From an uncultured Gammaproteobacteria bacterium (GTDB lineage Bacteria; Patescibacteriota; Patescibacteriia; SG8-24), in NCBI GenBank assembly GCA_964626205.1, contig CAZVED010000002.1:23708-87707 (forward strand): a stretch of DNA of 64,000 bases, written 5' to 3'. Under the pieces are notes generated by a model. It saw nothing but the letters and a program-made list of their open reading frames with translations, made no database searches and was not told the origin of the DNA. Each line of letters opens with the position of its first letter. The stretch's first letter is position 1. This document shows, piece after piece, positions 15,759-62,446 of this stretch. The position numbers were made by a program, and so were the translations under genes.

Positions 15759-16331
15759 ATGACCGCCGAAGAGCGACAACTTGCGGAGCGCAGCAGGGCA
15801 GGAGACCGCGAGGCCTTCGCCGGCCTTTACGATGCCTACGCGCAAAAAATCTACCGCTACCTCTATTACCGCATCCAGAACCGCCACACTGCCGAAGATC
15901 TTACGAGCACCGTGTTCCTGAAAGCACTGAATGGTATCGGTAGTTTCGACCCAGAGAAGGGAAGTGTCTCCGCCTGGTTCTACACTATCGCCAGAAACGC
16001 GCTCACCGACCACTTCCGGACGCAAAAGGCGACCGTCGACCTAGAAGACGTCTGGGATGCGCTCGTGGACGGCACGGACCTTGTCCGCGATGCCGATACC
16101 GCCGAACGCCTCAAAGACGTGGACAAGCACCTCATGACGCTCACTGCCGCTCAGCGCGATGTCGTCATCATGCGCCTCTGGGACGGGCTTTCCTACGCCG
16201 AGATCGCAGAAGCGACCGGTAAGAGCGAAGCCGCCTGCAAGATGACGTTCTCTCGTGGAATAACGACGCTTCGCTCGGTCATGCCACTCACCGCCTTCCT
16301 CCTGTTCCTCATTACACGCCCCTATGCATGA
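15759..16331 (+). CDS. ECF-type RNA polymerase sigma factor (sigma-70 family, group 4)
   Basis: Region 2 (FAGLYDAYAQKIYRYLYYRIQNRHTAEDLTSTVFLKAL) and region 4 HTH (RDVVIMRLWDGLSYAEIAEATGKSEAACKMTFSRGITTLR) are present. Confidence 0.85.
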   Translation: MTAEERQLAERSRAGDREAFAGLYDAYAQKIYRYLYYRIQNRHTAEDLTSTVFLKALNGIGSFDPEKGSVSAWFYTIARNALTDHFRTQKATVDLEDVWDALVDGTDLVRDADTAERLKDVDKHLMTLTAAQRDVVIMRLWDGLSYAEIAEATGKSEAACKMTFSRGITTLRSVMPLTAFLLFLITRPYA

Positions 16332-18835: not shown

Positions 18836-20158
18836 ATGCAGCAAAAGAAGCGCCTCATCATCGTCGCGGTCGCCGCAACTGTGACTGTTGCAGCCATTCT
18901 CGCTGCCATCCTCATCGTCATGCGTCCCGTCCGGCAAGCGGACATCGTCCCGCCGCTCCTTACCTCGAACGAGGTTGCAGAACTCGGGATCCGCGAAGAA
19001 TCCTTCACGCTACCGCCTCCTGAGCCGATGCCGACAGGGGAGTATGGTCCGCCCGCTCCGGAAGTCGTGCGCCAACCCTACCTCCCGCCGCCATCCATGA
19101 ACCTCACCAGCTCGCGTCTTGGCACACAACGCGTTCCTGGGAGCGAAGACGTCGGTGATGTCTATCAGATTCTTTTCCATGCGCGTGCATCCGCGTTGTT
19201 CATGGCAGTCATCGAGCCCACGGGGCTGCGCGCCATCTGGAAGCTGGATCAGCACGGGGCTTTCGAACGTGTCTTCGCGGTGAGCGAAGCGCAAGGGGAG
19301 ATACGCCTCTTCATGACGAGCGGAGGAGTGATGTACGTACAGGCGCATGGCGTCAAAGGCATGCTCCGTACCGACGATGCCTTCGCGACCATCCACCAGG
19401 TCGACGGCGACTTTGGGATGTTCTGGCAGATGACCGACAACGGTAGGGGAACGGTCTGGGGGACGCAGCATGAGTTCAACTCCGCCGTTCTGTTCCGCAG
19501 CACGGATAACGGCCTTACCTGGGAACCGTGGGTAGACTTTCATCAGCTCCTTCCGCAGGAAGCGCGGCGCTATGCGCAAGGTGACGAACGATTCCGGCTC
19601 CGCCACCTGCACGGCATCATCTTCAACGACAAGACGCAGGAACTCGTCGTAGGAACGGGCGATGTCGCACGCTACGCGCTCCGGACGCGCGACGAAGGAT
19701 TCACCTGGGAGCAGATCTGGGACGAAGGCTTCACCGCGTGGGCGCCGGTCCCCGGAGGAAGTCGCTACGTCCTCGGTCCGGATAAACTTGCAGGTCCAGG
19801 AATCGTCCTCTATGACGCCTGGGCAGACACGGTCCGCACGGTCTGGACGCCGTGGAAGCACGGCTATGCTGGGTACACCTACTCCATCATCAGCGCGGAA
19901 GGCATCCTCTACGCCGCGTTCCACACCGAAGCGAACGAGGTCGAGGAGCGGACGCCGCTCTTTGGTATCGTCGTCTCACCGGACGCTGAAACCTGGTATC
20001 CGTTCCTCCAATGGGGTCCGCTCGGCAACCATGCGCGCACGGACATTTGGCTCGCTCCGTCGCCCAGTGCAATCTACGCAAGCGTCAACGGCGCGCTCTA
20101 CGCCTTCAGTCCACTCGACCAGGAGTGGTTCACGAACAAGACTCCGTTCATGGAATGA
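18836..20158 (+). CDS. Membrane-anchored BNR/Asp-box repeat protein (sialidase-like beta-propeller)
   Basis: N-terminal TM (LIIVAVAATVTVAAILAAILIV). Asp-boxes are STDNGLTWEPW and RTRDEGFTWEQIW. The -10 TATACT at 18823-18828 is only 7 nt from the ATG, so the mRNA may be leaderless. Confidence 0.55.
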   Translation: MQQKKRLIIVAVAATVTVAAILAAILIVMRPVRQADIVPPLLTSNEVAELGIREESFTLPPPEPMPTGEYGPPAPEVVRQPYLPPPSMNLTSSRLGTQRVPGSEDVGDVYQILFHARASALFMAVIEPTGLRAIWKLDQHGAFERVFAVSEAQGEIRLFMTSGGVMYVQAHGVKGMLRTDDAFATIHQVDGDFGMFWQMTDNGRGTVWGTQHEFNSAVLFRSTDNGLTWEPWVDFHQLLPQEARRYAQGDERFRLRHLHGIIFNDKTQELVVGTGDVARYALRTRDEGFTWEQIWDEGFTAWAPVPGGSRYVLGPDKLAGPGIVLYDAWADTVRTVWTPWKHGYAGYTYSIISAEGILYAAFHTEANEVEERTPLFGIVVSPDAETWYPFLQWGPLGNHARTDIWLAPSPSAIYASVNGALYAFSPLDQEWFTNKTPFME

Positions 20159-20191
20159 AAAACGGCTCCCTGAAAGGGGAGCCGTCGTCGT

Positions 20192-20845
20192 TTACTCGAA
20201 GGTCAGACTGTTCATGACCTGCAGCATCTCGCGACGCCGCATGTCTTGCCGGGCCTTTGGCCACTCGGCACGGATGACCACCGTGTACTCCTGCGGCTGT
20301 TGTGGTAGACGCATGACCGCGAAAAAGACCTGTCTGGTTCCGCGCTCCGTCACCAGCACGCTCGTGAACCACGCCTTCTCGTCGTTCGACGTCTTGGTAG
20401 GGTATGCGCGAGTCATCCTCGCTCCATCGGCCTTCTCTTTCTCGAAGATGGCGTGCAACAAGTCTGGAACCGATGCCACATCGCTCGAACGACGGATGTC
20501 GATGCGGATCTCCGCGTCGCGATGCCCGTTCGTAAACAGGACGTCCGTGTTCGCGGCGAAGGAGACGTTCTTGAGGAACGACCCGCTCCAATCGGAGGAC
20601 GTCTCGTACCGCAGACGTACCGGTCGTGGCGCGGCGGGGTTGCCGTACGCGGTCGGGTTCCGGAAGACCTCGCGCTCCGTCATGAGCGGCGGGTCACGAA
20701 GCGGCTCGTCGCGCGTCACGGTACGGGTCACCACAGGAACCGTTCCTGCGGCCGCAAGCGGGTCCGTGGGCGAGTCCGCACTGGCTGGCAAAACTGCCGC
20801 CAGGATGGCAAAGACCGAAAGAACGCTGTTGGTTCTCATGCGCAT
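20192..20845 (-). CDS. Secreted protein, distant paralog of the lipoprotein family (AEWP motif)
   Basis: Start taken at MRMRTNSVLSVFAILAAVLPASA (signal peptide) with AAGGAGGAG upstream. The C-terminus ends ...VVIRAEWPKARQDMRRREMLQVMNSL. Confidence 0.55.
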   Translation of the reverse strand: MRMRTNSVLSVFAILAAVLPASADSPTDPLAAAGTVPVVTRTVTRDEPLRDPPLMTEREVFRNPTAYGNPAAPRPVRLRYETSSDWSGSFLKNVSFAANTDVLFTNGHRDAEIRIDIRRSSDVASVPDLLHAIFEKEKADGARMTRAYPTKTSNDEKAWFTSVLVTERGTRQVFFAVMRLPQQPQEYTVVIRAEWPKARQDMRRREMLQVMNSLTFE

Positions 20846-20934
20846 GAGTATCTCCTCCTTCGCAGCAGCGGGATGCCCTGCGAACATCTAGACCTACCAT
20901 GCCCGCCCATTCTTGGCAAGGATAAGGCTCAGGA

Positions 20935-20967
20935 TAAAAAAGGGGGCAGACCGAGTGTCTGCCCCCT
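20935..20967 (-). terminator. Intrinsic terminator of the 20978-21934 gene
   Basis: GGGGGCAGA-ccgagt-GTCTGCCCCC followed by TTTTTTATCC on the minus strand. Confidence 0.6.
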
Positions 20968-20977
20968 CACGAAAGGT

Positions 20978-21934
20978 TCAGTGATTCATCGACTCGTCGA
21001 CGACGATCGGGCCGTCCTCGCAGTGGACGGGGCCGTACTCGCCGTTATTGTACGCGTCGAGCATCGCGCCGAGCATCTTTGCGTTCGCGCTCGCGAGCGC
21101 GCCAGCGCCGCGATTCGACGTGCGGTAGGGAAGCTTGCCGTCCGCATCGGCGTTCGCGCTCATCCATGCCTGGGCGGCCGCAAGGTCGTCCATGAACGCG
21201 TCGGTACCGCCGGCCCCCGCAGCGACGTTGAGCATCGCAGCAATGAGCTGGTGGCCGAGAATGAGGCTCGCGTCGCCGCGTGTCGGGGTCTTCAGGATGA
21301 CCAACAGCTCCGCCTTCGTGTACGTACGGTTCCCGAGCGTCAACTCGTCGACCGGCCATGCCTCCGGATGGTTCTTCCAGAAGCCCTGCGTCAGCGTGCA
21401 ACCGTAGTCGGTCCCGGCATCCGGCTCCTCATCGCAGAGGAACGTGTATGCCACGAACTGGTACTGGCCGCCGACGCCCGTGAAGTGCAGGGACTGCGTC
21501 TGAACGTGCAGGAACTTCGCCATGATCTGCATCATGAGCGCATCACCGCACGCCGGCTCGCCGATCGCTTCGAACGGGATGACCACGGTCGAGGTCGTCG
21601 CGGTAGACGAAAGACCGAAGTTCTGGACGTACGGGCACTGCCACGGATCCGTAGACGTGACGGCACCGAAGGTCGCGCAGATCGACGTGTACACGATGAC
21701 GAATCCGGGAGATGCCGTGAACGTGACCGTCACTGCCGCATCGTCGGAAGACACCGTCGCCATGCCGGCCTGGACGGGGAAACCGTTCAGTGTCGACATG
21801 AGCGGATAGTCCGCCGCCGGGATGCTGAGCGTCTGCCGTTGCCCGGCGACCTCGTTCGGCTGCTCCGCCACGGCGCAAGCCCCGACCATGAGTGTCGCTG
21901 CGACCAGGAAACTCCATCGAACGATACGTGTCAT
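20978..21934 (-). CDS. Lipoprotein with conserved CTLTQGFWKNHPEAWP motif
   Basis: Starts MTRIVRWSFLVAATLMVGAC (lipobox VGAC), with RBS AAAAGGAGGA. The mature protein is Thr/Ser-rich and contains the GCTLTQGFWKNH motif and several Cys. Confidence 0.55.
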   Translation of the reverse strand: MTRIVRWSFLVAATLMVGACAVAEQPNEVAGQRQTLSIPAADYPLMSTLNGFPVQAGMATVSSDDAAVTVTFTASPGFVIVYTSICATFGAVTSTDPWQCPYVQNFGLSSTATTSTVVIPFEAIGEPACGDALMMQIMAKFLHVQTQSLHFTGVGGQYQFVAYTFLCDEEPDAGTDYGCTLTQGFWKNHPEAWPVDELTLGNRTYTKAELLVILKTPTRGDASLILGHQLIAAMLNVAAGAGGTDAFMDDLAAAQAWMSANADADGKLPYRTSNRGAGALASANAKMLGAMLDAYNNGEYGPVHCEDGPIVVDESMNH

Positions 21935-21959
21935 TGTGCGTCCTCCTTTTGGGTGGTTG

Positions 21960-22700
21960 TGAGACGCGGTCGCATGCTACAAGATTCCATGGATATGTCA
22001 AGGAGGTCGTAGCGCTATGCATCTTCGATGAAGCATTTTTTGGCTTTGTTAAGCTAAAAAATGCTTATTATCCTTAAAATTGGCTTAATCTAGCAAAAAA
22101 ACGACACTGGCGGTTATCGATAAATTTTGAACAAGCACGGCAAGAACATCTGCAAAAGATCTCTGACAAGTCTCAACAAGAGAGCTGGCTGCTCCATATC
22201 TCGCTTCGCCACGCCAGACACTTGCTGAACAAGCACGGCAAGAGAAAAGCATTTTTAGGGGGCCTCCCCCCGATCCCAGCCTTATTAAGTGTCGTCTAAG
22301 ATATATTGTGCGACACAGTAGAGACCACTCCTGGGCCGCTTCCCTCGCGCTCCTAGAGGTCAACGCCCCCGTACTGCTCTGGTGTATTTTCCCTGGGTGC
22401 TCTGGCCATGAAGTTCCATCCCTTGGCGCACACGCGACACAAGTCACTGGGACGAGACCCGTGCGCACATCATGGCGCTACCCCATCGTTGCCTTCTGCT
22501 GGATCGCCGGGCGCGCGGACTCAGTCCCCGACCATGGGATACTCAGTCGCACATGACATGGTTCCCCATCCTCCATTTTGGTCGTTTCTGAATGTGGACG
22601 AAAGTCCCTCGATGTGTCGTAAAATGTATATCCTGCGCCCTGCGTCCATTGACCAGCAATCCGCCTGCCGTATACTGACCGCACCGCCCTTTGCCATGGA
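21960..22700. other. AT-rich non-coding island with direct repeats
   Basis: No convincing ORF on either strand. GC drops sharply, visible for example at 22040-22140. TGAACAAGCACGGCAAGA occurs at 22128-22145 and 22226-22243. It ends in a TTGACC-N16-TATACT promoter (22657-22684) for the next gene. Confidence 0.5.
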
Positions 22701-38599: not shown

Positions 38600-39538
38600 A
38601 TGATCCGCATTGTCTATTTCGGAACCTCGCGCTTCGCCGTGACTCCCTTGCTCCGTTTGCTCGAACAGCCGGACGTTTTCAAGGTGGTTGCCGTCGTTTC
38701 GCAACCGGACCGTCCGGTCGGACGTAAGGCCGTCCTCACGCCCACGCCGGTTTCCGTCGCGGCGCTGGAAAAAAGTCTGCCGCTCTTCCGCTACGAAAAG
38801 ATCCGTACGCCGGAGATACTTGAGGAGCTCCGCTCGTTCGAAGCGGACGTGTTCGTGGTCGCGGCGTACGGCCGCATTATCCCGCAGACCATCTTGGACC
38901 TGCCGCGCATTGCGCCTATCAACCTCCACGGTTCATTGCTGCCGAAGTATCGTGGCGCCTCCCCTATCCAGGCCGCCATCGCCAACGGCGACGCCGTGAC
39001 CGGCATTTCGTTGATGCAGATGGACGCGGAGATGGATCATGGACCGGTGTATGCGATGATTGAAACGCCGATCGTCGCCACGGACACCTTCGAGACGCTC
39101 GAAGCGAAACTCGCCGACGATGCCGCAGCAATGCTTTTGGGAAAGCTTCCCGCCATCGTCGACGGAACGCTCGTCGCCGTCGAACAAGATCACGCTGCCG
39201 CGACCTCCACCGGACTCATCAAGAAAGAAGACGGTGTCATCGACCCGCTCACCATGTCTGCCGTGCAAATCGAGCACCGTCTTCGCGCCTACACCCCATG
39301 GCCCGGCATGACGTATGTGTGGAGCCGAGGCGACGAGGTGCTCAACCTGAAGCTCCTCTGTGTCGGAGTAACGGACACACCCCTCCTCGCACCTGGAGCG
39401 CACGGCATCACCGCCGACGGCTACCCCGCGCTCGGTACGCGCGAAGGCACGCTCGTGCTCAGCGAGGTACAGCCTGCGGGGAAGAAGTCTATGGATGGAA
39501 AGATATTCCTCAACGGGTACGCGGATTTCATGAAATAA
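38600..39538 (+). CDS. fmt: Methionyl-tRNA formyltransferase
   Basis: Starts MIRIVYFGTSRFAV. Contains NLHGSLLPKYRGASPIQAAI (formyltransferase SLLP motif) and the C-terminal domain. Confidence 0.9.
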   Translation: MIRIVYFGTSRFAVTPLLRLLEQPDVFKVVAVVSQPDRPVGRKAVLTPTPVSVAALEKSLPLFRYEKIRTPEILEELRSFEADVFVVAAYGRIIPQTILDLPRIAPINLHGSLLPKYRGASPIQAAIANGDAVTGISLMQMDAEMDHGPVYAMIETPIVATDTFETLEAKLADDAAAMLLGKLPAIVDGTLVAVEQDHAAATSTGLIKKEDGVIDPLTMSAVQIEHRLRAYTPWPGMTYVWSRGDEVLNLKLLCVGVTDTPLLAPGAHGITADGYPALGTREGTLVLSEVQPAGKKSMDGKIFLNGYADFMK

Positions 39539-39554
39539 GCTCAATGAGGCCAAA

Positions 39555-39602
39555 ACACCCTTGACAAAAGGGTGTTTTTGTGGTATGGTCATGAGCGTAC
39601 CT
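39555..39602 (+). promoter_or_regulatory. fmt terminator hairpin overlapping a TTGACA-N17-TATGGT promoter plus conserved CATGAGCGTACCT
   Basis: ACACCCTT-gacaaa-AGGGTGT-TTTTG hairpin whose loop holds the -35 TTGACA (39561-39566). The -10 TATGGT is at 39584-39589, and the downstream 13 nt are identical to 8456-8468. Confidence 0.5.
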
Positions 39603-39640
39603 GAGTGATTTTTTCTCCTGTTCCTTTTGAGGAGGTTTCC

Positions 39641-39949
39641 ATGTCCCATCCCATTCCGACCGGTCCCGTACACACCATCAAGACGCTCCTGCGTGGCGGC
39701 AAGAGCCTCGAGGAGTCGCTCGCCATCATCCGGCGCGCCGCCGACGAGCTCAACATGAAGGTCGGCCTCCCGACCGCCGACGAGGTGCATGCGTACCTCG
39801 CGCACCGCCGCGACGTGCTCAACGACGTCGCGCTCATGTGCGCGACGACGGAGCCGGACTTCGTCATCGAACCGCCTCCGCCCGGCACGCCGAGCCCGGT
39901 GGTCCGCATCGCGGAAGCCATGCTCGAGCTGCGGCACGAGATCAACTGA
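39641..39949 (+). CDS. Small hypothetical protein (102 aa)
   Basis: Starts MSHPIPTGPVHTIKTLLRGGKSLEESLAIIRRAADELNMKVGL. GAGGAGG lies 8 nt upstream and a terminator at 39967-39994. Confidence 0.5.
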   Translation: MSHPIPTGPVHTIKTLLRGGKSLEESLAIIRRAADELNMKVGLPTADEVHAYLAHRRDVLNDVALMCATTEPDFVIEPPPPGTPSPVVRIAEAMLELRHEIN

Positions 39950-40000
39950 ACTCGCCGCACAACAAGCGACCCCGCACCATACCGGTGCGGGGTCTTTCAT

Positions 40001-46682: not shown

Positions 46683-46868
46683 ATCGTTTCTCCTTGGAAG
46701 CGAGGTTGATTGGTCGCTTCCACGCCGGATAGCTACAGCCTCAACGGAAATGGGTCAAATCCCCTCTTTTCTGCCTTATTTTCCTAGTTATCCACAGGCT
46801 TCATCAAAGTTCCCTTCCGCATTGCCAAGGAGGCGTTTCCGGGGTATGGTGGATGGAACCTCAAGCCT

Positions 46869-47252
46869 ATGGAAAACCCTTGGAAAGACCTCGGAGGCCC
46901 TACCTACCGCATCGAGAACCTCGGTCGTCCGGCCGTGTTCCTGATCCCCTCCGTCAAACTCCGCTCCCCAACGCCCTCCGGGAAGACGATTGAGGACGAC
47001 CTCCACGCCTTCCTCTCGGAGACGTTCGGCGCGTTCACCACGACGACCGTGCCGTTCTTCGGTTTCTGGCAGAACGACCACGAACAGCTCGTCTACGACG
47101 AGTGCCGCATGTACGAGGTCTCCTTCGACGGCAAGCACCTCATCCCCCAGCTGCTCACCAAGCTCGCGGAGATTTGCTCCCTTATTGGCGAGGAATGCCT
47201 CTACGTGAAGGCGGGGCAATATTCGGGGCTTTTGTATCCGGAGAAGAAGTGA
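46869..47252 (+). CDS. Hypothetical protein (127 aa)
   Basis: TTGCCA-N17-TATGGT promoter at 46822-46850. A bidirectional terminator follows at 47264-47300. Confidence 0.45.
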   Translation: MENPWKDLGGPTYRIENLGRPAVFLIPSVKLRSPTPSGKTIEDDLHAFLSETFGAFTTTTVPFFGFWQNDHEQLVYDECRMYEVSFDGKHLIPQLLTKLAEICSLIGEECLYVKAGQYSGLLYPEKK

Positions 47253-47314
47253 GTGTGGGGAAACGAAAAGACGTCCCATAAGGGACGTCGTTTCTTGTTT
47301 GCAGGGTCGGCGCC

Positions 47315-47800
47315 TTAGCGCTTTGCCCACTGAGATGCCTTACGAGCCTTCTTGAGACCCGGCTTCTTGCGCTCCTTCTTGCGCGCGTCGCGCGTGAGGA
47401 AGCCAAGCGGCTTGAGCGATCCGCGATAGGTCGGATTGTAGACCAAGAGCGCGCGGGAGATGCCGAGGCGGGATGCTTCGGCCTGGCCGCGGAGACCGCC
47501 TCCGGAAACCGTGAGCGCGACGTTTGCCGACTCGTCGAATCCGACGGCGCGGAGCGGTGCGAGCACCTGCTCCTGGTATTCGAACGTCGGGAAGTATTCC
47601 TTCATCGGACGCTCGTTGACCGTGATCTGACCCTTGCCGTCCATCCAAAGGCGCGTCTTCGCGATGGCGTTCTTGCGGCGGCCGACGGCGTAGACGTACT
47701 CGTCCTTCTTCAGCTTCTTTGCGGCGGACGCGTCGACGACCGGAGCCGTGGCGACGACGACCTCCTCGGTTGTTTCCTGCGTTGTCGTGGTTTCTTCCAT
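47315..47800 (-). CDS. rpsI: 30S ribosomal protein S9 with acidic Thr/Glu-rich N-terminal extension
   Basis: Core is YVYAVGRRKNAIAKTRLW and the C-terminus is GGLRGQAEASRLGISRALL...KKARKASQWAKR. Confidence 0.9.
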   Translation of the reverse strand: MEETTTTQETTEEVVVATAPVVDASAAKKLKKDEYVYAVGRRKNAIAKTRLWMDGKGQITVNERPMKEYFPTFEYQEQVLAPLRAVGFDESANVALTVSGGGLRGQAEASRLGISRALLVYNPTYRGSLKPLGFLTRDARKKERKKPGLKKARKASQWAKR

Positions 47801-53320: not shown

Positions 53321-53947
53321 TTAGTTGCACTCGCCGGACATGTCGCCGTGGCAGCGCCAGGCGGACTCCGAACCGTTCAGGAGCACGCGGAACGTCGGTT
53401 TGAAGCGGCGAATCGTCCCCTCGATCTGCTCCTTGATGCGCGGGTCGTCACAAGCCCCACCGGAGACGATGTTGCCTGTGATACGAACTTCGGTCGTGAT
53501 GCCGTCCGGACTGCGGATGTCGTCCACCGCGAGCTCGGAATACGCCAGACTGTTATGCAGGCCTCCGACGTTGGAATCGCGTACGGCGAAGAGCGTCGCA
53601 AGCGCGTCGAGCATGGTGTTGCCCGTAGCGGTCTCGCGCGTCATCTGCACGACGACCGGACGGTCGTTGCAGCCGATGACCTCGCCAGGCAGGACGCCAG
53701 TCGGGGCTTCGGCGCCTTCGGTCAGAATCATGACCACGCCGACCTCGTTCGTCATGCGTTCGTTTTCCTCGTTCGCGCGAGCACGCTGCTCGGCAGAGAG
53801 GTCGCCGGCCTTCTCAAGCGCTTCGAACGGAACCGTAACGGGACGCAAGGCGTCGTCAACAACTTTGTCTGCGGCAGGCACGCAACCGGCACCGACGAAC
53901 AAAAGGGTCGTAAGGAGAGCGGAAAGACGCGAAATAGTGATATGCAT
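53321..53947 (-). CDS. Lipoprotein, possibly GerMN-domain-like
   Basis: Starts MHITISRLSALLTTLLFVGAGC (lipobox). Confidence 0.45.
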   Translation of the reverse strand: MHITISRLSALLTTLLFVGAGCVPAADKVVDDALRPVTVPFEALEKAGDLSAEQRARANEENERMTNEVGVVMILTEGAEAPTGVLPGEVIGCNDRPVVVQMTRETATGNTMLDALATLFAVRDSNVGGLHNSLAYSELAVDDIRSPDGITTEVRITGNIVSGGACDDPRIKEQIEGTIRRFKPTFRVLLNGSESAWRCHGDMSGECN

Positions 53948-55516: not shown

Positions 55517-56080
55517 CTACTTGCGTGCGCCGATGAGGTCGCGAACCTGGGACCAATCCCCTGCCACGTCGTATCCTTCTTCGATGCTCAGCTGAGGGCT
55601 CACACCATGATGGTCGAGCAGAACGCGCTTCATGCGCGGTGAAAGCGACTGTAGCACTTCGAGCTGGTCGTCGACGAATGCGGTGATGCCGAGACGGTCA
55701 CAAATCGCGCGCTTGTCTTTCTTGGATTCACAGAAAAACATCCGCTCGGCAGGGATGATGTCGAACACGCCGTGCTTCATGAGCCACTGCTGCGCGTACC
55801 GGACGGACTTGAGCCGTCGTGCGGAGACGATGTACGGCTCACCGTCGAGCGCGGCAAGATGCTCTAACGCGCCTGGGATAGATGGCGCGTCCCCTGTCAT
55901 CTTGAGATACACCTCGTCAAGCAGCGTCTCATGGTCCTGCTGCGCCATGACGCCGCGCAGGATGTTGGAGTTCGTCTGCCAAGGTTCCAGGGAATACCCA
56001 AGTCGCGCGGCCACCGCGAGCTTATGCGCCGTGTGGTCGATAAGCACCCCGTCCAAATCGATGCCGATCCTGCGTGACAT
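55517..56080 (-). CDS. HAD-superfamily 5'(3')-nucleotidase-like hydrolase
   Basis: Motif I is GIDLDGVL. Motif III/IV is KRAICDRLGITAFVDD. Confidence 0.6.
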   Translation of the reverse strand: MSRRIGIDLDGVLIDHTAHKLAVAARLGYSLEPWQTNSNILRGVMAQQDHETLLDEVYLKMTGDAPSIPGALEHLAALDGEPYIVSARRLKSVRYAQQWLMKHGVFDIIPAERMFFCESKKDKRAICDRLGITAFVDDQLEVLQSLSPRMKRVLLDHHGVSPQLSIEEGYDVAGDWSQVRDLIGARK

Positions 56081-56127: not shown

Positions 56128-57543
56128 TCACGTTCTTGGCCGCAAAGGCTCGATAGCCTTCATCGCGGCAGCGACATGCTCCGGTAAGACGTACAGGTTT
56201 GTGAGGTCGATGACCTCGTTGTATTTGTTGAGCAAGGACGAGTGCCGCTCGATTGGCTCATACACCGCCGCCCCGAATACCTTCTTGCGGACGAGCATGG
56301 CCGTTCCTTCCGGATCCGGCGGAGCAGTCGCACCGAGCATCTTTGAAAGGGTCTGACGCGCATCCATGGTGAAGTATGGGACAGCGGCTTCCATAAGCAT
56401 GGCGACAGTTTGCTCCATGAGTGTGCGATCCTCTGCAATCGCATTCGCGGACTGGAGCAGTAACTTCGGCGGACGCCGTTCCGTGAGCCGCCGCGCCCAG
56501 ACGTTCGCAGGGTCCTTCGCTGCACCGAACAACCGTTCGATGAGCGTGGAGTCGCGCAGCTCGGCGTACTCCTCCGCCGTCCCGGGCACGACGAGACTAA
56601 ACTCGCCGTGCTGGAGTGCCTGGTCCAGGTAATGATCGAACGCGGTCGTGGTCTTGTGCATGTAGACCTGGATGAACATGTGATACCGCGCGAGAAGGAA
56701 GTCCTCGAACGTCCGGACTGCCGTCGCATCGATGGTGAGCCGGAGGCCCATCTCATCATGATCGACGACACCAAGATTACCGACCAAATGATCGATGTCG
56801 TGTGCACCATACGCAGCGCCGGTGTGATACGCATCGCGCAGGAGATAATCCATGCGATCGCAATCAAGCTCGCCGGAGATGAGCGAACGCAACAGGCGAC
56901 GGATGCCCTCACGACCTTCCCAGCCGGCACCTGGCGTCACGCCATGGTGCACGAGCGAGGCAATATCCCGCGCTTCGTCTTCTGACAGTGCCGCATCTGG
57001 CCCCTTCGCGAGCGCAGCGATGAGCACGACGGAATAATCCTCATGTTTCGCCTGACGATCCTGGTCGGGATGCTCGAACCAGCCGATAGGAATCTCCAGC
57101 TCGGAGAACGACGGCATGAACTGTTCGGAGACATGGGAAAACGGCGGATGCCCGAGGTCGTGCAGGAGTCCGGAGAGACGGAGTAAGCGACGGAATCGCG
57201 CGAGATCCTCTTCGCTGAAACGCTTACGAAGCACGTCACCGGATGTCGAAACAATACCGTCCCAAAGTCGGCCGGCAACATGCATCGCGCCTAACGCGTG
57301 CGAGAACCGATCATGCGTCGCGCCAGGATAGACAAGGTAGCTCAACCCGAGCTGCCGCACATGACGGAGGCGCTGGACGTACGGATGATCGATAACGCGC
57401 TTCTCGGACTCCGAGAAGCTGATTGTGCGGTGAATGGGGTCGCGAATCTCGAACATAGAAGGAGGCTTAGCGTGAGCTTGAGTATCGTCATCTCGTACCA
57501 TGACACAACCGTAGCATCCGACCAGCGCCTGACAAGAACCCAC
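56128..57543 (-). CDS. HD-domain dNTP triphosphohydrolase (dGTPase/SAMHD1-like)
   Basis: Starts ...IRDPIHRTISF. HD motif is THDRFSHALGAMHVAGRL...LLHDLGHPPFSH. Start is ambiguous among 57543, 57501 and 57456. Confidence 0.75.
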   Translation of the reverse strand: MGSCQALVGCYGCVMVRDDDTQAHAKPPSMFEIRDPIHRTISFSESEKRVIDHPYVQRLRHVRQLGLSYLVYPGATHDRFSHALGAMHVAGRLWDGIVSTSGDVLRKRFSEEDLARFRRLLRLSGLLHDLGHPPFSHVSEQFMPSFSELEIPIGWFEHPDQDRQAKHEDYSVVLIAALAKGPDAALSEDEARDIASLVHHGVTPGAGWEGREGIRRLLRSLISGELDCDRMDYLLRDAYHTGAAYGAHDIDHLVGNLGVVDHDEMGLRLTIDATAVRTFEDFLLARYHMFIQVYMHKTTTAFDHYLDQALQHGEFSLVVPGTAEEYAELRDSTLIERLFGAAKDPANVWARRLTERRPPKLLLQSANAIAEDRTLMEQTVAMLMEAAVPYFTMDARQTLSKMLGATAPPDPEGTAMLVRKKVFGAAVYEPIERHSSLLNKYNEVIDLTNLYVLPEHVAAAMKAIEPLRPRT

Positions 57544-58505: not shown

Positions 58506-60671
58506 TCAGAACGTTACGGTCTCACCTGGATCGAGCGGCCTTGGTCCATCCGATGGTGTGGAAGGAGCAGGTCTCGGCGGCTTCGGTTCCGGTGGCAATT
58601 GTCGTTGTTGCAGCTGCGGCTTCGCTTGCTGCTCCTTCATGAAGCGGATCTTGTCTGCATTCGGACTATCAGCGGCTGGTATCGATTGCTGTGGTGGACG
58701 TTGCCGCTGCTGTTGTGGCGGTTGTTGCTGCTGCGGCTGCGGCTGCGGGCGGGGTGCCGGACGTTCCGCGCGCGGTGCCTCTTCGCGACGCGGAGGCGGC
58801 GCCGGACGTTCGGTATCCGCGGACTTCTTCTTGTCGCCCAGCAACATATCGAGGCGCACATCGTCATCACCGCTATCGCGAATGATGACCGGCTTTCCGG
58901 AACCCAGCGGTGGCACGACGGCCGTACGGTCAGCGCGCGGCTGTGGCGGACGTTGCCGTTGTTGTTGCTGCGGCTGCGGGCGGGGCGCCGGACGTTCCGC
59001 GCGCGGCGCCTCTTCGCGGCGCGGAGGTGGTGTTGATGGACGGTCATCGCGACGCGGCGGAGGTGGTGAAACTGGACGGCGCGGAGGCGGCGGAAGTTTG
59101 TCCTTCAAGTCGAGATGGTCCTTACAGAACCACGGTCGGGATTTGTCCGGCTCGAACGTAAGCTTGGAAATGTTCGGGCAGTCAGGAACAGAGCACGCCA
59201 TCTCGTACTTCGCCTCCTTCTTCGGCTTATCACCAGGGCCACCGACGGGGCCGGAAATCGACGGAGAAGATTTTGCGAGCTCCTCGAGCTTCGTGGCAAT
59301 GGACTTCTCGAGATCTGAAGCATCATCTTCAGTTACAGTATCATCGCCCGCGAATCCGCTCCAACGGTTCACGTTCAGCTCGACGACCGAACGAGGAGTC
59401 GCGTACCGCTCGCGCGAGACGCGGATGACCTTGTCCGCACTGCCGGTGCGCTGCGAAATCTGCGGCAACGTCGTCGCGGAGAACGGTGCGGATGCGGCAC
59501 CGTTAATCATGAGCTTGAGATAGATGTCGTACTTCTGGAGATTTACGATGTCCTCTTCCGTAAACTGTGGCGCGAACTCCTTACCAAGCAGCTCGGCATC
59601 TACCGCGCCGACACGGAACGCGATGATGGTGCCAACGTTGCCGAAAATGGCCGCCCGGACGAGCTCGTCGAGCTGTTCCACGTACTGATGCGCGACGATG
59701 AGGTTGAGGCGGTACTTGCGCGCCTCGGAAAGGATGTTCGCGAACGATTCGGTGGCGAAGTTCTGGAATTCATCGACATAGAGGTAGAAATCCTGCCGAT
59801 CCTCTTCTTTCGGGATATCCACGCGCTCCATCGCCGCGAGCTGGAGACGTGTGATGATCATGGCACCGAGCAGGCGGGCGTTCTCTTCGCCGATGAAACC
59901 CTTCGAGAGGTTCACGATGAGAATCTTGCGGTTATCCATGATGTCACGCACGTCGATGGTCGACTTCGGCTGCGCGACGATGTTGCGGATGAGCGCAGTG
60001 GAGAGGAACTGACCGACCTTGTTCTGCACCGGCGCGACGGCCTCAGTGGCGTACTTCTCCTGCCACGACGCGAATTCCTTGACCCAGAACGTCTTCACGA
60101 TGGGATCCTGGATGACCGCGACGACGCGCTGACGGAACTCCTTGTCCGACAGGATGCGCGTGATGCCGAGCAGCGTCGACCCTGGGTAATCCAAAAGCGC
60201 ATTGATGGTGTTCAGCAGGATGTACTCCATGCGCGCCGACCATACGTCCGGCCAGATCTTCTTGAACACGCCCATGAGACCCGCGGAGATGAGATGCTTC
60301 TGGTTCTCCTTGACCTGTTCAAGAATGTTGAAGCCTACCGGGTGGTCCAGGTCGCCAGGATTGAAATACACGACGTCGTTGATGCGATGCGGCGGGATGA
60401 AGTCCAAAAACCGCTGCGCGGTATCGCCGTGCGGATCGATGTAGCAGACGCCGTGACCCGCGTTGATGTCGTTCACGAACATGTTCTCGAGCAAGGTCGT
60501 CTTGCCCATGCCCGTCTTTCCGATCACGTACGCATGACGGCGGCGATCATCCGTCTTGATACCGAACTTGCGACGACGATTGCGAAAGTTCGTCTCGGCG
60601 AAGACGTTGATTTCGCTATCGTGGTCGTGATCGTACGGCAGTGGAGCTGCAGGGGGCATCGACATAGGCAT
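58506..60671 (-). CDS. VirD4/TraD/TrwB-like P-loop ATPase with C-terminal zinc finger and repetitive Pro/Gln-rich tail
   Basis: Walker A is VIGKTGMGKTTLLENMF. Walker B is FYLYVDEFQNF. The sensor is RKYRLNLIVAHQYVEQLD. A C-x4-C...C-x2-H motif follows (CSVPDCPNISKLTFEPDKSRPWFCKDHL), then about 220 aa of PPPRR/PQPQ repeats. Confidence 0.65.
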   Translation of the reverse strand: MPMSMPPAAPLPYDHDHDSEINVFAETNFRNRRRKFGIKTDDRRRHAYVIGKTGMGKTTLLENMFVNDINAGHGVCYIDPHGDTAQRFLDFIPPHRINDVVYFNPGDLDHPVGFNILEQVKENQKHLISAGLMGVFKKIWPDVWSARMEYILLNTINALLDYPGSTLLGITRILSDKEFRQRVVAVIQDPIVKTFWVKEFASWQEKYATEAVAPVQNKVGQFLSTALIRNIVAQPKSTIDVRDIMDNRKILIVNLSKGFIGEENARLLGAMIITRLQLAAMERVDIPKEEDRQDFYLYVDEFQNFATESFANILSEARKYRLNLIVAHQYVEQLDELVRAAIFGNVGTIIAFRVGAVDAELLGKEFAPQFTEEDIVNLQKYDIYLKLMINGAASAPFSATTLPQISQRTGSADKVIRVSRERYATPRSVVELNVNRWSGFAGDDTVTEDDASDLEKSIATKLEELAKSSPSISGPVGGPGDKPKKEAKYEMACSVPDCPNISKLTFEPDKSRPWFCKDHLDLKDKLPPPPRRPVSPPPPRRDDRPSTPPPRREEAPRAERPAPRPQPQQQQRQRPPQPRADRTAVVPPLGSGKPVIIRDSGDDDVRLDMLLGDKKKSADTERPAPPPRREEAPRAERPAPRPQPQPQQQQPPQQQRQRPPQQSIPAADSPNADKIRFMKEQQAKPQLQQRQLPPEPKPPRPAPSTPSDGPRPLDPGETVTF

Positions 60672-62110
60672 CAGGCAAACGGGAGATCATCGGGGATATC
60701 GCTATCCTCCTCGGCAAGCGCACCTGAGCGCGGTGCTTGCGCGGTCGGTGCCTGGAAGGCTGGCTTGATGACGTCGAACGGACGACCGTCGAGCATACCC
60801 TCCACCGGCAGACCTGCCGGAGGTTCGGAACGCTTCGCTTCGGTCTTCTTGAGCGACGGCGTCTTGATGCCGAGCATCGGGAAGTGGTAGAGCGTCGCAA
60901 GCTCCTCGATGTTGAGAATAAACGCGTCCGCTCCTTTGCCGCTGCGCTTCTTGTAGTTGCGCACGATGGCCGACTCCTTGTCGTGCATGGACCAGCGCTG
61001 CCAGAAATAATCACCTTTCGGCGTGACCTTGCCGTAGCCCGTGAGCGTATTCATGTTGAGCGCGTTGAACTGCGCGAGCGCGCCCTTGAACGACGACATC
61101 ACGCGACCCTTCGCGAACTTGTCGCGCTTCGCCGCATAGACGATGCGCATCTTCGTCTTGAACGCGATCTTGGAGAGCTTCTGCTGCATGGCCTTGAGCG
61201 TCTCCGTCTCGCCGGGAGAGAGCTTCTGCATGACCGGCGTTCCGTCGGCCTTCTTCGGCGCATCATCGCCACCCCCAAGGATGGGTGACCCTGCGACCTG
61301 TGTCGACAGCTCGTTCATGAGGCCGATTGGGATGTCCGTCACCCAGCCGAAAGACGATTTCTTCGCTGGAGGCGTGATACCGAGGATCTTCTTCACCTCC
61401 GCCTCCCCCTTTTCCTTCCAGTCGTCGCCGAGCGGCGTGATGATGAATTGCAGCCACAAGTGTTCGCCCGGCTGGAGGCTTGAGAACACCTCAAGCACCG
61501 CGGACATCGGATCTTTGAACATGACCTCCTCGGAGGACTTGTCCTCGAATGCGGAATACGTGCGGATAGGGATGTGCGTCGGCTTCTTCAATACGAACTC
61601 CGTCCCGAAGACCTGCCATTCGGCGTCGGGATACTGCGACGGGATCTTATCGACGTAATCGGCAATCTCGACAATCTCCGCACCAGGATACTGCGAGTAA
61701 AACGCGGACTCGACGAGGTCACGATACTTGGTGTTGGTACGCACGACGAACTGCACGTAGCCGCCGATAGAGACGATCTCGAAACTGAAGCTCGACGGCC
61801 CCATGCCGTACCAGTACTTCTCGATGTTGTCGAAACCGCCGTATGCACCGGAAAGGTGGCTGAAAATCTGCTCGACAGCCTTTGGGGTCTGTTCGTTGTC
61901 GCGTGGAACATCGATGGCAAGAACGCAGAACGTCTGTTGCGCACCGAACTTCGCCTGGCGGGATTCGACCCAAAGGAACCAGAGGACCTGCGAGAGCAAC
62001 GCCACCACGAACACCCATCCTCCGTCCAAAAAGACCCGCCACAGCATGAGCGGGAACGGCAAATTCCCTAATTCGAGGAAATAATTAAGGTTGACGTGGA
62101 TTGTCGGCAT
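60671..62110 (-). CDS. Membrane protein partner of the VirD4-like ATPase (479 aa, single N-terminal TM)
   Basis: Its stop overlaps the ATPase start by 1 nt. TM is LMLWRVFLDGGWVFVVALLSQVLWFLWV. No recognised domain. Confidence 0.5.
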   Translation of the reverse strand: MPTIHVNLNYFLELGNLPFPLMLWRVFLDGGWVFVVALLSQVLWFLWVESRQAKFGAQQTFCVLAIDVPRDNEQTPKAVEQIFSHLSGAYGGFDNIEKYWYGMGPSSFSFEIVSIGGYVQFVVRTNTKYRDLVESAFYSQYPGAEIVEIADYVDKIPSQYPDAEWQVFGTEFVLKKPTHIPIRTYSAFEDKSSEEVMFKDPMSAVLEVFSSLQPGEHLWLQFIITPLGDDWKEKGEAEVKKILGITPPAKKSSFGWVTDIPIGLMNELSTQVAGSPILGGGDDAPKKADGTPVMQKLSPGETETLKAMQQKLSKIAFKTKMRIVYAAKRDKFAKGRVMSSFKGALAQFNALNMNTLTGYGKVTPKGDYFWQRWSMHDKESAIVRNYKKRSGKGADAFILNIEELATLYHFPMLGIKTPSLKKTEAKRSEPPAGLPVEGMLDGRPFDVIKPAFQAPTAQAPRSGALAEEDSDIPDDLPFA

Positions 62111-62446
62111 GTATCCCCAGTATAGCAGGAAATAGGCTCAAGGGGTAGATGTGCTTACGACGGGAGCGGCTGGATTTGCGCGATGCCGTCGTTGTCGCGT
62201 CTCATGGGTGCGCTGCACCCATTTCGCCGCTCCGCCTAGGCCTCGCGCAAACCAGCTCGCTCCGGGGTTTACCCCAGGCGGGTCGCCAGAGCACATCCGC
62301 GATGACACCCCGACCCGGCACCCCGCCACACGCTCACCGTTCATGTTCCCGGCCCCGGACCGGGGCCGGGATGCCGAGAGAGCGTCAAGACGCAAAGAGC
62401 GGCGCTTTGTGGCGCCGCTCTTTGCAACAAGGGAATGACCGCTAGC
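62111..62446 (-). ncRNA. Candidate structured RNA (RNase P RNA-like motif order), unverified
   Basis: The 336-nt GC-rich intergenic region has many hairpins. In minus-strand order it reads GGGGUGCC...CCUGGGGUAAACCCC...GCGAAAUGGGUGCAGCGCACCC...AAAUCCAGCCGCU, resembling the order of conserved bacterial RNase P RNA regions. Confidence 0.2.

What the first reader, a model, noticed from the sequence alone, without database searches (positions are those of the whole stretch)
58506..62110. Two-gene module: membrane protein plus VirD4/TraD-like ATPase with zinc finger and disordered PQ-repeat tail
The 721-aa protein has the Walker A / Walker B / sensor arrangement of type IV coupling proteins (TrwB/VirD4/TraD; FtsK-HerA clade). 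It lacks their N-terminal membrane anchor. Instead, a 479-aa single-TM protein with no recognisable domain is translationally coupled upstream by a 1-nt overlap, as if the anchor were a separate polypeptide.

The ATPase ends in a Cys2-Cys-His zinc knuckle and an unusually long Pro/Gln/Arg-rich low-complexity tail. No relaxase, VirB4/VirB11, pilin or integrase gene is nearby, so this is not an obvious conjugative element. It sits between secDF and a periplasmic HtrA-like protease.

It could be a minimal DNA or protein translocation device, for example for uptake or host interaction in a reduced-genome organism, or an unrecognised defence ATPase.
Basis: partly seen in the sequence, partly recalled or inferred. 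Interest (0 to 1): 0.75.

Follow-up and report, generated by a model that had tools for sequence, protein, structure and literature searches.

The report
Split membrane-anchored coupling-protein-like ATPase of Patescibacteria
This is a real two-gene module, conserved across the ultra-small Patescibacteria (CPR), in which a soluble motor ATPase of the type IV coupling-protein kind pairs with a separate membrane protein folded like the front half of VirB4; its cargo is unknown and it sits away from any secretion-system genes.

Summary
There are two ORFs on the minus strand joined by a TGATG overlap. The 721-aa ATPase has no membrane segment. The 479-aa partner has one hydrophobic N-terminal helix. 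The ATPase also carries a Cys3-His zinc ribbon and a 196-aa Pro/Arg/Gln tail.

The ATPase passes Pfam's thresholds for coupling-protein families (TrwB_AAD_bind, TraG-D_C). Its nearest solved relatives by sequence are DotL and TrwB.

Three points are new here:
- A paralog in related genomes fuses the partner-like domain and the ATPase into one 852-aa protein.
- The partner gene is followed directly by the ATPase gene in 67 of 78 related loci. The pair usually lies beside secDF, and the partner family was not found on viral contigs.

The literature already reports orphan VirD4-like genes in 96% of Patescibacteria genomes, rarely near virB4. I found no paper describing the partner or the split/fused architecture.

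The module is most likely a two-subunit membrane translocation motor. Whether it serves the distant T4SS or acts independently, for example on DNA, is unresolved. I rate it a new variant of a known kind.

The parts
60671..62110 (-). Partner gene: a 479-aa membrane-anchored scaffold protein. Its homologs carry Pfam PF26449.
   Evidence: ORF. 2171 homologs, all from Patescibacteria. 3259 clusters at 50% identity. AlphaFold model with pLDDT 79.9 and pTM 0.74.
61961..62050 (-). N-terminal hydrophobic helix of the partner (about residues 21-50), the predicted membrane anchor. Positive residues (R51, K55) follow it.
   Evidence: Hydropathy maximum of 1.88 at residue 30. The model shows one long helix at residues 19-58. 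A cytoplasmic location for the rest of the protein is inferred from the fused paralog, which has no second membrane segment before the ATPase.
60881..61930 (-). Globular alpha/beta region of the partner (residues 61-410) with a VirB4 N-terminal-domain-like fold.
60674..60880 (-). Partner C-terminal region. It holds the conserved KKTEAKRxEPPxxLP stretch, then a disordered acidic tail ending in the conserved motif P-x-[ND]-L-P-F-A.
   Evidence: pLDDT below 50. Conservation shown in alignment A1. [LIVM]P[FILVTM] occurs within the last 6 residues in 214 of 267 homologs.
60669..60673 (-). TGATG junction: the partner's stop and the ATPase's start share one base, consistent with translational coupling.
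   Evidence: Sequence. ORF coordinates.
59352..60671 (-). ATPase core (residues 1-440): a FtsK-HerA superfamily P-loop domain of the coupling-protein (VirD4/TrwB/TraD) type. It includes an invariant N-terminal Y-D-H-D-H-E-N-E motif and a helical insert at residues 122-233.
60498..60521 (-). Walker A motif, GKTGMGKT (residues 51-58).
   Evidence: G51, K52, G54, G56 and K57 are invariant.
59769..59786 (-). Walker B motif, YLYVDE (residues 296-301).
   Evidence: D300 and E301 are invariant.
59103..59207 (-). Zinc ribbon / treble-clef-like module (residues 489-523): C493-x4-C498 ... C516-x2-H519.
   Evidence: C493, C498 and C516 are invariant in 25 homologs. Weak matches to zf_Tbcl_2 and TIGR04272. 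Many homologs carry precomputed PF23477. Local pLDDT of 79-87 within an otherwise poor model.
58509..59096 (-). Disordered Pro/Arg/Gln-rich tail (residues 526-721) with a 21-aa internal repeat. It ends in the conserved terminal motif PGETVTF (family consensus PGQVIKF; nt 58509-58529).
   Evidence: Composition and repeat. pLDDT below 50 for residues 530-709. The tail varies in length and sequence among homologs, but PGxx[IVLM]xF occurs in the last 10 residues in 77 of 120.
62111..62446 (-). Intergenic region between secF and the partner gene. It has a perfect 14-bp-stem hairpin just after secF and a 12-nt palindrome. A TATACT box lies about 10 nt before the ATG.
   Evidence: Sequence. Inverted repeats at 62392-62405/62412-62425 and 62347-62358/62360-62371. 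No Rfam match. The promoter role is an inference only.

Best explanation
The two genes encode the two halves of one membrane-bound translocation ATPase of the VirD4/VirB4 lineage.

The partner spans the cytoplasmic membrane once with its N-terminal helix. It exposes a VirB4-N-terminal-domain-like scaffold to the cytoplasm. The soluble coupling-protein-like ATPase is made in step with it through the TGATG overlap and docks on that scaffold. It presumably forms a ring like other FtsK-HerA motors and uses ATP to hand a macromolecular substrate to a membrane channel.

The zinc ribbon, the long flexible tail and its conserved terminal PGxxIxF peptide act as a tether that recruits the substrate or an adaptor. 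This would resemble the way the F-plasmid TraD tail binds TraM.

Shown here:
- The family assignment of the ATPase.
- The fold of the partner.
- The gene coupling and the existence of a fused paralog.
- The chromosomal, housekeeping, vertically conserved context.

Inferred:
- Complex formation and the cytoplasmic topology of the partner.
- Hexamer formation and the role of the tail.
- That the cargo is a macromolecule.

Which channel the motor serves is unresolved. My split is about 45% for the Patescibacteria T4SS encoded elsewhere, about 30% for a T4SS-independent nucleic-acid route, and the rest for something else.
For: ATPase identity:
- It passes Pfam TrwB_AAD_bind and TraG-D_C.
- NCBIfam's best partial hits are TraD, TrbC and VirD4-like families.
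- The best PDB sequence hits are DotL and TrwB.
- The Walker A and B residues are invariant.

Coupling of the two genes:
- A one-base overlap.
- The ATPase lies directly downstream of the partner in 67 of 78 loci from diverse Patescibacteria.

Fusion: the 852-aa protein at L038:7193-9751 combines a membrane segment, a partner-like domain and a T4CP ATPase. The partner-like domain scores hhalign 99.6%, E 1e-24. The ATPase domain hits TrwB_AAD_bind at 47 bits and T4SS-DNA_transf at 37.7 bits. The same architecture (PF26449 + PF10412 + PF12696) appears in about a dozen database proteins and in loci L049, L058, L062 and L066.

Not mobile: the context is housekeeping and the partner family gave no hit on viral contigs.

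Literature:
- VirD4-like genes are present in 2,918 of 3,035 Patescibacteria genomes, and only 148 of 5,713 lie near virB4 (PMC12102498).
- A T4CP without a membrane domain that is proposed to be anchored by a separate membrane protein has a precedent in pIP501 TraJ/TraI (PMC12857230).
Against: - No physical interaction was shown, and I could not run a complex prediction.
- The ATPase model is poor (pLDDT 56). At the fold level it cannot separate T4CP from VirB4, HerA or DptH.
- The partner shows no sequence-level similarity to VirB4 or TrsD. The relationship rests on one predicted structure, and the aligned range in TrwK is inferred rather than reported.
- In 11 of 78 loci, mostly Magasanikbacteria, the partner has no adjacent ATPase.
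- The t4cp homolog of Southlakia epibionticum is reported as non-essential while the T4SS genes are essential (PMC12102498). This fits poorly with a role as the obligate T4SS coupling protein.
- No substrate, channel or adaptor has been identified.
Confidence: 0.6

Rival explanations
1. It is the classical coupling protein of the Patescibacteria type IV secretion system, simply encoded away from the virB4 cluster. The VirB4-N-terminal-domain-like partner slots the ATPase into the T4SS inner-membrane complex. The tail selects protein or DNA cargo for delivery to the host cell.
For: - T4CP family membership.
- A VirB4-like scaffold would naturally make VirB3/VirB8/VirB4-type contacts.
- VirB4 is present in 80% of Patescibacteria genomes, and t4cp genes are often unlinked from virB4 in other systems (PMC12102498).
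Against: - Only 148 of 5,713 T4CP homologs lie near virB4, and they occur in about 500 more genomes than VirB4 does.
- The t4cp homolog is non-essential in S. epibionticum while the T4SS is essential.
- Wang et al. 2023 found no recognisable coupling protein in the T4SS cluster.
- No T4SS gene was found in this 64-kb window.
Confidence: 0.3
2. It is a T4SS-independent nucleic-acid translocase for DNA or nucleotide scavenging. The membrane-anchored motor would pull DNA in, possibly at the ComEC channel, feeding salvage pathways in organisms that cannot make nucleotides.
For: - Near-universal presence, like ComEC (PMC6744442; PMC12102498).
- Relatives of the ATPase are DNA motors (TrwB, HerA, DptH, FtsK).
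- The ATPase has a zinc ribbon.
- Nucleotide-salvage genes recur downstream. AMP phosphorylase occurs within six genes in 20 loci and directly after the ATPase in 12, with ribose-1,5-bisphosphate isomerase and RuBisCO in 8.
- In this window a dGTPase-like HD protein and a weak NT5C-like protein lie nearby.
Against: - The synteny evidence is weak and not phylogenetically independent.
- A comEC mutation does not affect S. epibionticum viability, so DNA uptake by transformation is not an essential source of nucleotides (PMC12857230).
- Known T4CPs export rather than import.
- No DNA-binding test was possible.
Confidence: 0.2
3. It is an anti-phage defence ATPase module related to the HerA/DptH/MADS mad8-type motors.
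For: - The ATPase hits the PADLOC mad8 profile (77.8 bits, E 2.5e-22, residues 43-385) and HerA profiles.
Against: - The partner has no PADLOC hit.
- No other mad, dnd, nuclease or methylase gene is adjacent.
- The pair is near-universal, vertically conserved and sits in a fixed housekeeping neighbourhood beside secDF. This is the opposite of the patchy, island-borne distribution of defence systems.
- Pfam's T4CP families pass their thresholds.
Confidence: 0.05
4. It has a housekeeping envelope role linked to Sec-dependent export or cell division. The motor might, for example, assist secretion or quality control together with SecDF and the HtrA-like protease. Alternatively it might act as an FtsK-like chromosome pump.
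For: - SecF lies upstream, in the same orientation and within 3 kb, in 53 of 67 loci that have enough upstream sequence to show it.
- An HtrA-like protease lies downstream in this lineage.
- The PQ-rich disordered region recalls the E. coli FtsK linker (from my own knowledge).
Against: - Conserved gene order in these genomes can be purely historical.
- A strong hairpin and a 336-bp gap separate secF from the module here.
- The protease is a neighbour only in the closest relatives.
- There is no FtsK_SpoIIIE Pfam match.
- Saccharibacteria are reported to have FtsK (papers listed).
Confidence: 0.1

Closest known systems
Type IV coupling proteins (VirD4 / TrwB / TraD / DotL; Pfam PF10412, PF02534, PF12696)
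   Same: - Nucleotide-binding domain with Walker A and B motifs.
- A helical insert between the Walker motifs.
- Profile matches above Pfam's thresholds.
- A C-terminal extension ending in a conserved short peptide, as in F TraD, whose tail binds TraM.
   Different: - No N-terminal transmembrane domain.
- Not encoded with T4SS, relaxase or oriT functions.
- Chromosomal, vertically inherited and near-universal in one phylum.
- Carries a zinc ribbon and a long Pro-rich tail.
- Paired with a VirB4-N-terminal-domain-like subunit.
pIP501 TraJ (T4CP without a membrane domain) plus TraI (small membrane protein proposed to anchor it)
   Same: The coupling-protein ATPase and its membrane anchor are separate polypeptides (PMC12857230).
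   Different: - TraI is a small two-helix protein without a large cytoplasmic domain.
- That system is plasmid-borne and conjugative.
VirB4 (R388 TrwK) with VirB3, and the stand-alone VirB4-N-terminal-like TrsD of pGO1
   Same: - The partner's predicted fold matches TrwK best.
- The fused paralog reproduces the VirB3-VirB4-like order of membrane helix, N-terminal domain, then ATPase.
- TrsD shows that a VirB4-N-terminal-like protein can exist as a separate gene (PMC12102498).
   Different: - No sequence-level similarity to TrsD or to the VirB4 of pGO1, and none to any PDB chain.
- The ATPase half scores as T4CP, not VirB4: AAA_10 is below its cutoff and there is no CagE_TrbE_VirB hit.
- It is not in a T4SS locus.
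EccE / EccC of type VII (ESX) secretion
   Different: - The match is much weaker.
- No other ESX components are present.
- The ATPase is not EccC-like in domain number.
HerA / DptH (DndH) / MADS mad8 defence and repair ATPases
   Same: Same FtsK-HerA superfamily fold. The mad8 profile hit is 77.8 bits.
   Different: - No NurA, Sir2, Dnd or Mad partners.
- The distribution is core-like rather than island-like.

Membership tests
Type IV coupling protein (VirD4/TrwB/TraD) | Nucleotide-binding domain with Walker A and B motifs. The family literature names the nucleotide-binding domain as the defining motif (abstract of PMC7431656, listed). | tested here: met
   GKTGMGKT at residue 51 and YLYVDE at residues 296-301. 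The catalytic residues are invariant in 25 homologs.
Type IV coupling protein (VirD4/TrwB/TraD) | Sequence-profile match to curated T4CP families above their thresholds. | tested here: met
   TrwB_AAD_bind 39.8 bits against a cutoff of 20.5, and TraG-D_C 27.7 bits against 22. Many homologs also carry PF02534. NCBIfam equivalog cutoffs are not reached; only partial hits were found.
Type IV coupling protein (VirD4/TrwB/TraD) | N-terminal transmembrane domain, present in most T4CPs. | tested here: not met
   No hydrophobic window in the 721-aa protein. The membrane helix is on the separate partner.
Type IV coupling protein (VirD4/TrwB/TraD) | All-alpha domain inserted in the nucleotide-binding domain. 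| tested here: inconclusive
   Helices are predicted at residues 122-233 between Walker A and B, but the model is of low confidence. At the fold level, TrwB, VirB4 C-terminal domain and HerA score equally.
Type IV coupling protein (VirD4/TrwB/TraD) | Genetic association with a T4SS and/or relaxase. | tested here: not met
   None in the 64-kb window. In the literature, 148 of 5,713 Patescibacteria T4CP homologs lie near virB4.
Type IV coupling protein (VirD4/TrwB/TraD) | Couples a substrate to a T4SS channel. | not testable with these tools
   Needs genetics or biochemistry.
VirB4 (considered for the module as a whole) | N-terminal-domain fold of VirB4. | tested here: met
   [not shown]
VirB4 (considered for the module as a whole) | Sequence-profile match to VirB4 families (CagE_TrbE_VirB, AAA_10, TIGR00929). 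| tested here: not met
   The partner has no Pfam or NCBIfam hit. For the ATPase, AAA_10 scores 15.9 bits against a cutoff of 27.5 and TIGR00929 scores 19.6 against 643. hhalign against pGO1 TrsD and TrsE found nothing for the partner.
VirB4 (considered for the module as a whole) | N-terminal domain and ATPase on one polypeptide, within a T4SS locus. | tested here: not met
   The two are split here. They are fused only in the paralog. Neither form was seen beside T4SS genes in the loci examined.
Pfam PF26449 (the family's name is not available in these tools) | Profile match. | tested here: inconclusive
   116 of the 120 closest homologs listed carry precomputed PF26449.1, as do the fused paralogs. 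The local Pfam copy lacks the model, so the window protein itself could not be scored.
MADS / HerA-type defence ATPase | Profile match together with the cognate partner genes of the system. | tested here: not met
   The mad8 profile hits at 77.8 bits. No other mad, HerA-partner, nuclease or methylase gene is adjacent. The partner has no PADLOC hit.
FtsK/SpoIIIE | FtsK_SpoIIIE motor profile. | tested here: not met
   [not shown]

The most novel reading that the evidence does not exclude
The pair and its fused paralog are a third, previously unnamed branch of the VirB4/VirD4 motor lineage. This branch keeps a VirB4-type N-terminal scaffold together with a VirD4-type ATPase. It would then be either a living intermediate between the two T4SS ATPases or a recombinant of them.

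In Patescibacteria this branch would work independently of the T4SS as a core membrane translocase. One candidate role is a DNA or nucleotide import motor that feeds salvage pathways in cells that cannot synthesise nucleotides.
Probability: 0.2. Interest if true: 0.85.

Novelty: new variant of a known kind. Interest (0 to 1): 0.6.

Why it matters
Patescibacteria make up a large share of bacterial diversity. They depend on host cells, and their envelope machines are central to how they live.

A 2025 survey found VirD4-like genes in 96% of Patescibacteria genomes, almost never beside the T4SS. That survey left open whether these genes were 'exapted for other functions'.

Three results here turn that open remark into a defined two-subunit machine that can be tested directly:
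- The orphan ATPase comes with a dedicated, co-inherited membrane subunit.
- That subunit has a VirB4-like fold.
- Nature also makes the two as a single fused protein.

The tests are concrete. The complex can be modelled or purified. Partners of the two conserved C-terminal peptides can be pulled down. The genes can be deleted in the genetically tractable Saccharibacteria.

The combination of a VirB4-type front end with a VirD4-type motor also bears on how the two T4SS ATPases diverged.

Tried and rejected
- The look-up of encoding contigs with the 100%-identical database protein P0121 returned nothing.
- A literature search for PF26449 found nothing, so the Pfam name of the partner family is unknown to me.
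- A profile search of the partner alignment against all PDB sequences gave no hit even at E = 10.
- hhalign of the partner alignment against pGO1 TrsD and TrsE/VirB4 gave no signal. The VirB4 relationship is therefore structural only.
- hhalign of the ATPase alignment against single pGO1 TrsK and TrsE sequences did not discriminate between them.
- The afdb50 fold library was unavailable.
- Rfam found no RNA family in the flanks or in the 336-bp intergenic region.
- The promoter and terminator consensus scans were at chance level.
- A viral-contig scan found no relative of the partner.
- The idea that the module replaces a missing FtsK was dropped. Saccharibacteria papers report FtsK and there is no FtsK profile match.
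- The sigma-like/HARE-HTH gene that precedes the partner in 39 other loci has no remnant in this window.
- The MADS preprint gave no domain description for mad8.

Full report
OBSERVATION

Two minus-strand ORFs, 60671..62110 (479 aa) and 58506..60671 (721 aa), share one base in a TGATG junction.

The 721-aa protein has no hydrophobic window that could span a membrane. Its Walker A motif (GKTGMGKT) starts at residue 51 and its Walker B motif (YLYVDE) is at residues 296-301. The last 196 residues are 27% Pro, 14% Arg and 13% Gln and contain an exact 21-residue repeat.

The zinc site reads C493-x4-C498 ... C516-x2-H519. The three cysteines are invariant in 25 homologs, and the fourth ligand is Cys or His in most of them.

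The 479-aa protein has one hydrophobic stretch at about residues 21-50. It has no hit in the local Pfam or NCBIfam libraries.

SecF lies upstream and a Trypsin_2/HtrA-like protease lies downstream.

I screened 35 further ORFs across the window. Those with hits are housekeeping genes:
- Asp/Asn-type, Ser, Glu and Ala tRNA synthetases
- Alr, Ddl, FtsH, ClpB and MnmA
- glycosyltransferases
- RpoA and ribosomal proteins

Several others have no Pfam hit. None is a relaxase, VirB4/VirB11, pilin or integrase. tblastn with pGO1 VirB4 also finds nothing.

THE ATPASE

It passes the gathering thresholds of two coupling-protein families: TrwB_AAD_bind (39.8 bits, cutoff 20.5) and TraG-D_C (27.7 bits, cutoff 22). 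DUF87/HerA and AAA_10 fall below threshold.

NCBIfam gives only partial hits, to TraD, TrbC and a VirD4-like family. The nearest solved sequences are DotL/IcmO and TrwB.

The assignment 'coupling-protein-like' therefore rests on sequence profiles, not on fold.

The core (residues 1-440) is extraordinarily conserved. About 180 columns are invariant, including an N-terminal Y-D-H-D-H-E-N-E motif. The tail varies freely in length and sequence but usually ends in PGxx[IVLM]xF, found in 77 of 120 homologs.

THE PARTNER

An alignment of 41 homologs gave a good model (pLDDT 79.9, pTM 0.74). It shows a long helix at residues 19-58, a two-lobed alpha/beta region at residues 61-410 and a disordered tail.

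No sequence-level relationship could be shown. A PDB profile search was empty. hhalign against pGO1 TrsD and VirB4 was negative.

The tail ends in a conserved P-x-[ND]-L-P-F-A peptide. [LIVM]P[FILVTM] occurs in the last six residues of 214 of 267 homologs.

THE TWO BELONG TOGETHER

A scan of species-representative genomes found at least 591 genomes with a relative of the partner. All 80 loci fetched come from Patescibacteria-type MAGs: Uhr-, Magasanik-, Falkow-, Komeili-, Kerfeld-, Veblen- and Paceibacteria. Several are obviously mislabelled.

In 67 of the 78 loci with enough downstream sequence, the ATPase gene directly follows the partner gene.

The exceptions are mostly Magasanikbacteria, and they were informative. 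In L038 an 852-aa protein on the other strand combines three elements:
- a membrane helix;
- a partner-like domain (hhalign 99.6%, E 1e-24, residues 51-414);
- a coupling-protein ATPase (TrwB_AAD_bind 47 bits, T4SS-DNA_transf 37.7 bits, TraG-D_C 30.8 bits, residues 427-777).

About a dozen of the 49 database proteins returned by a search with its N-terminal half show the same architecture (PF26449 + PF10412 + PF12696). It also recurs in L058 and L066. In L049 and L062 it recurs alongside a split pair.

This fusion is strong evidence that the two window proteins act as one unit. Because the fused protein has no second membrane segment, it also places the partner's globular domain in the cytoplasm.

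CONTEXT

SecF lies upstream, in the same orientation and within 3 kb, in 53 of 67 loci that have enough upstream sequence to show it.

In 39 loci a protein combining sigma-70 region 4 with a HARE-HTH-like domain sits between secF and the partner. That gene is absent from this window. Here a 336-bp spacer with two perfect hairpins takes its place.

Downstream genes vary by lineage. In 20 loci they include AMP phosphorylase (TIGR03327, 553.9 bits). In 8 loci ribose-1,5-bisphosphate isomerase and RuBisCO accompany it. In this window the downstream genes include a dGTPase-like HD protein and a weak NT5C-like protein.

No relative of the partner occurs on viral contigs.

WHAT IS ALREADY KNOWN

Quinonero-Coronel et al. 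2025 (PMC12102498) surveyed 3,035 Patescibacteria genomes.
- They found 5,713 VirD4-type homologs in 2,918 genomes, of which only 148 lie near virB4.
- VirB4 itself was present in 2,417 genomes.
- They noted that the homolog in Southlakia epibionticum is not essential, and that exaptation 'cannot be ruled out'.

Wang et al. 2023 saw no recognisable coupling protein in the essential T4SS cluster.

The orphan ATPase is therefore published. About two copies per genome fits the split-plus-fused paralogs seen here.

I found no paper that describes the partner, its VirB4-like fold or the split/fused relationship. The partner family does already exist as Pfam PF26449.

A separately encoded membrane anchor for a coupling protein without a membrane domain has a proposed precedent in pIP501 TraJ/TraI (PMC12857230).

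MECHANISM

The best-supported reading is a two-subunit, membrane-tethered translocation ATPase.
- The partner is an anchor plus a VirB4-N-terminal-like scaffold.
- The ATPase is a VirD4-type motor.
- The zinc ribbon, the flexible tail and the terminal peptide recruit cargo or an adaptor.

The architecture is shown. The assembly, the ring formation, the role of the tail and the nature of the cargo are inferred.

The channel it serves is open. Arguments for the distant T4SS:
- the homology to coupling proteins;
- a scaffold that could make VirB4-like contacts.

Arguments against the T4SS:
- the ATPase is more widespread than VirB4;
- it is essentially never linked to virB4;
- it is dispensable in a species where the T4SS is essential.

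A T4SS-independent nucleic-acid route is suggested only by the DNA-motor relatives and the recurring nucleotide-salvage neighbours. That evidence is weak and not phylogenetically independent.

A defence role is suggested by a PADLOC mad8 hit (77.8 bits). It is contradicted by the core-like, syntenic distribution and by the absence of partner genes for such a system.

VERDICT

The module is a widespread variant of a known kind rather than a unique device.

Its interest lies in three things: the VirB4-like partner, the natural fusion, and the fact that a near-universal machine of a major bacterial radiation still has no known cargo.

Noticed in passing
L038:7193-9751(-); also L058:18349-20868(-), L066:6752-9241(-), L049:186-2612(+), L062:5-1993(+): A paralog fuses a membrane helix, a partner-like domain and a T4CP ATPase into one protein of about 850 aa, without the zinc ribbon or tail. 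In L049 and L062 it lies within 10 kb of a split pair. In the Magasanikbacteria loci the stand-alone partner has no adjacent ATPase.
   Followed up: yes
window 62111-62446: The 336-bp GC-rich spacer between secF and the partner gene has a perfect 14-bp-stem hairpin (62392-62425) and a 12-nt palindrome (62347-62371). There is no Rfam match. In 39 other loci this position holds a gene of about 370 aa combining sigma-70 region 4 with a HARE-HTH-like domain, and no remnant of that gene is present here.
   Followed up: partly
L025, L028, L031, L036, L037, L039, L041, L043 and others, downstream of the ATPase: AMP phosphorylase occurs within six genes downstream in 20 loci and directly after the ATPase in 12. 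Ribose-1,5-bisphosphate isomerase and form III-like RuBisCO accompany it in 8 loci. This is the archaeal-type nucleotide salvage pathway. The link could be functional or merely inherited gene order.
   Followed up: partly
window 56128-57543(-) and 55517-56080(-): A 471-aa HD-domain protein (HD + HD_assoc_2, with weak dGTP triphosphohydrolase hits) and a 187-aa protein with a sub-threshold NT5C deoxynucleotidase hit lie just downstream of the protease. Both suggest nucleotide metabolism.
   Followed up: partly
window 60674-60715(-) (partner C-terminus ...EEDSDIPDDLPFA): The acidic tail ending in D-D-L-P-F-A resembles, from my memory, the acidic 'DDD(I/L)PF' C-terminal tip of bacterial SSB that recruits DNA-maintenance proteins. 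Here one extra residue follows the Phe. I did not test this; it is a lead only.
   Followed up: no
window 60612-60635(-) (ATPase residues 13-20): The N-terminal motif Y-D-H-D-H-(E/D)-N/S-E has Y13, H15, H17 and E20 invariant across the split ATPases. It is absent from the fused paralog. It is a candidate docking or metal-binding element that replaces the covalent link.
   Followed up: partly
[not shown]
   Followed up: partly
L002, L004, L013, L017-L019 and others; L003; L006: Many of the public MAG records carrying this Patescibacteria-specific pair are titled 'uncultured Gammaproteobacteria', 'Candidatus Binatia' or 'Acutalibacteraceae'. These are probably mislabelled or mis-binned.
   Followed up: no
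window 5474-6490(+), 16324-17910(+), 18836-20158(+), 20453-22012(+), 38933-40000(-), 46788-47330(-), 53321-53947(-): Several sizeable ORFs have no Pfam hit at E <= 1e-4 to 1e-5. Some of them overlap one another (18836-20158, 19662-20891, 20453-22012), so not all need be genes.
   Followed up: no
window 58687-58733: A 21-nt tandem repeat of 2.2 copies lies inside the region coding for the ATPase tail. A separate exact 21-aa protein repeat occurs at residues 548 and 625. Both are consistent with tail expansion by duplication.
   Followed up: partly
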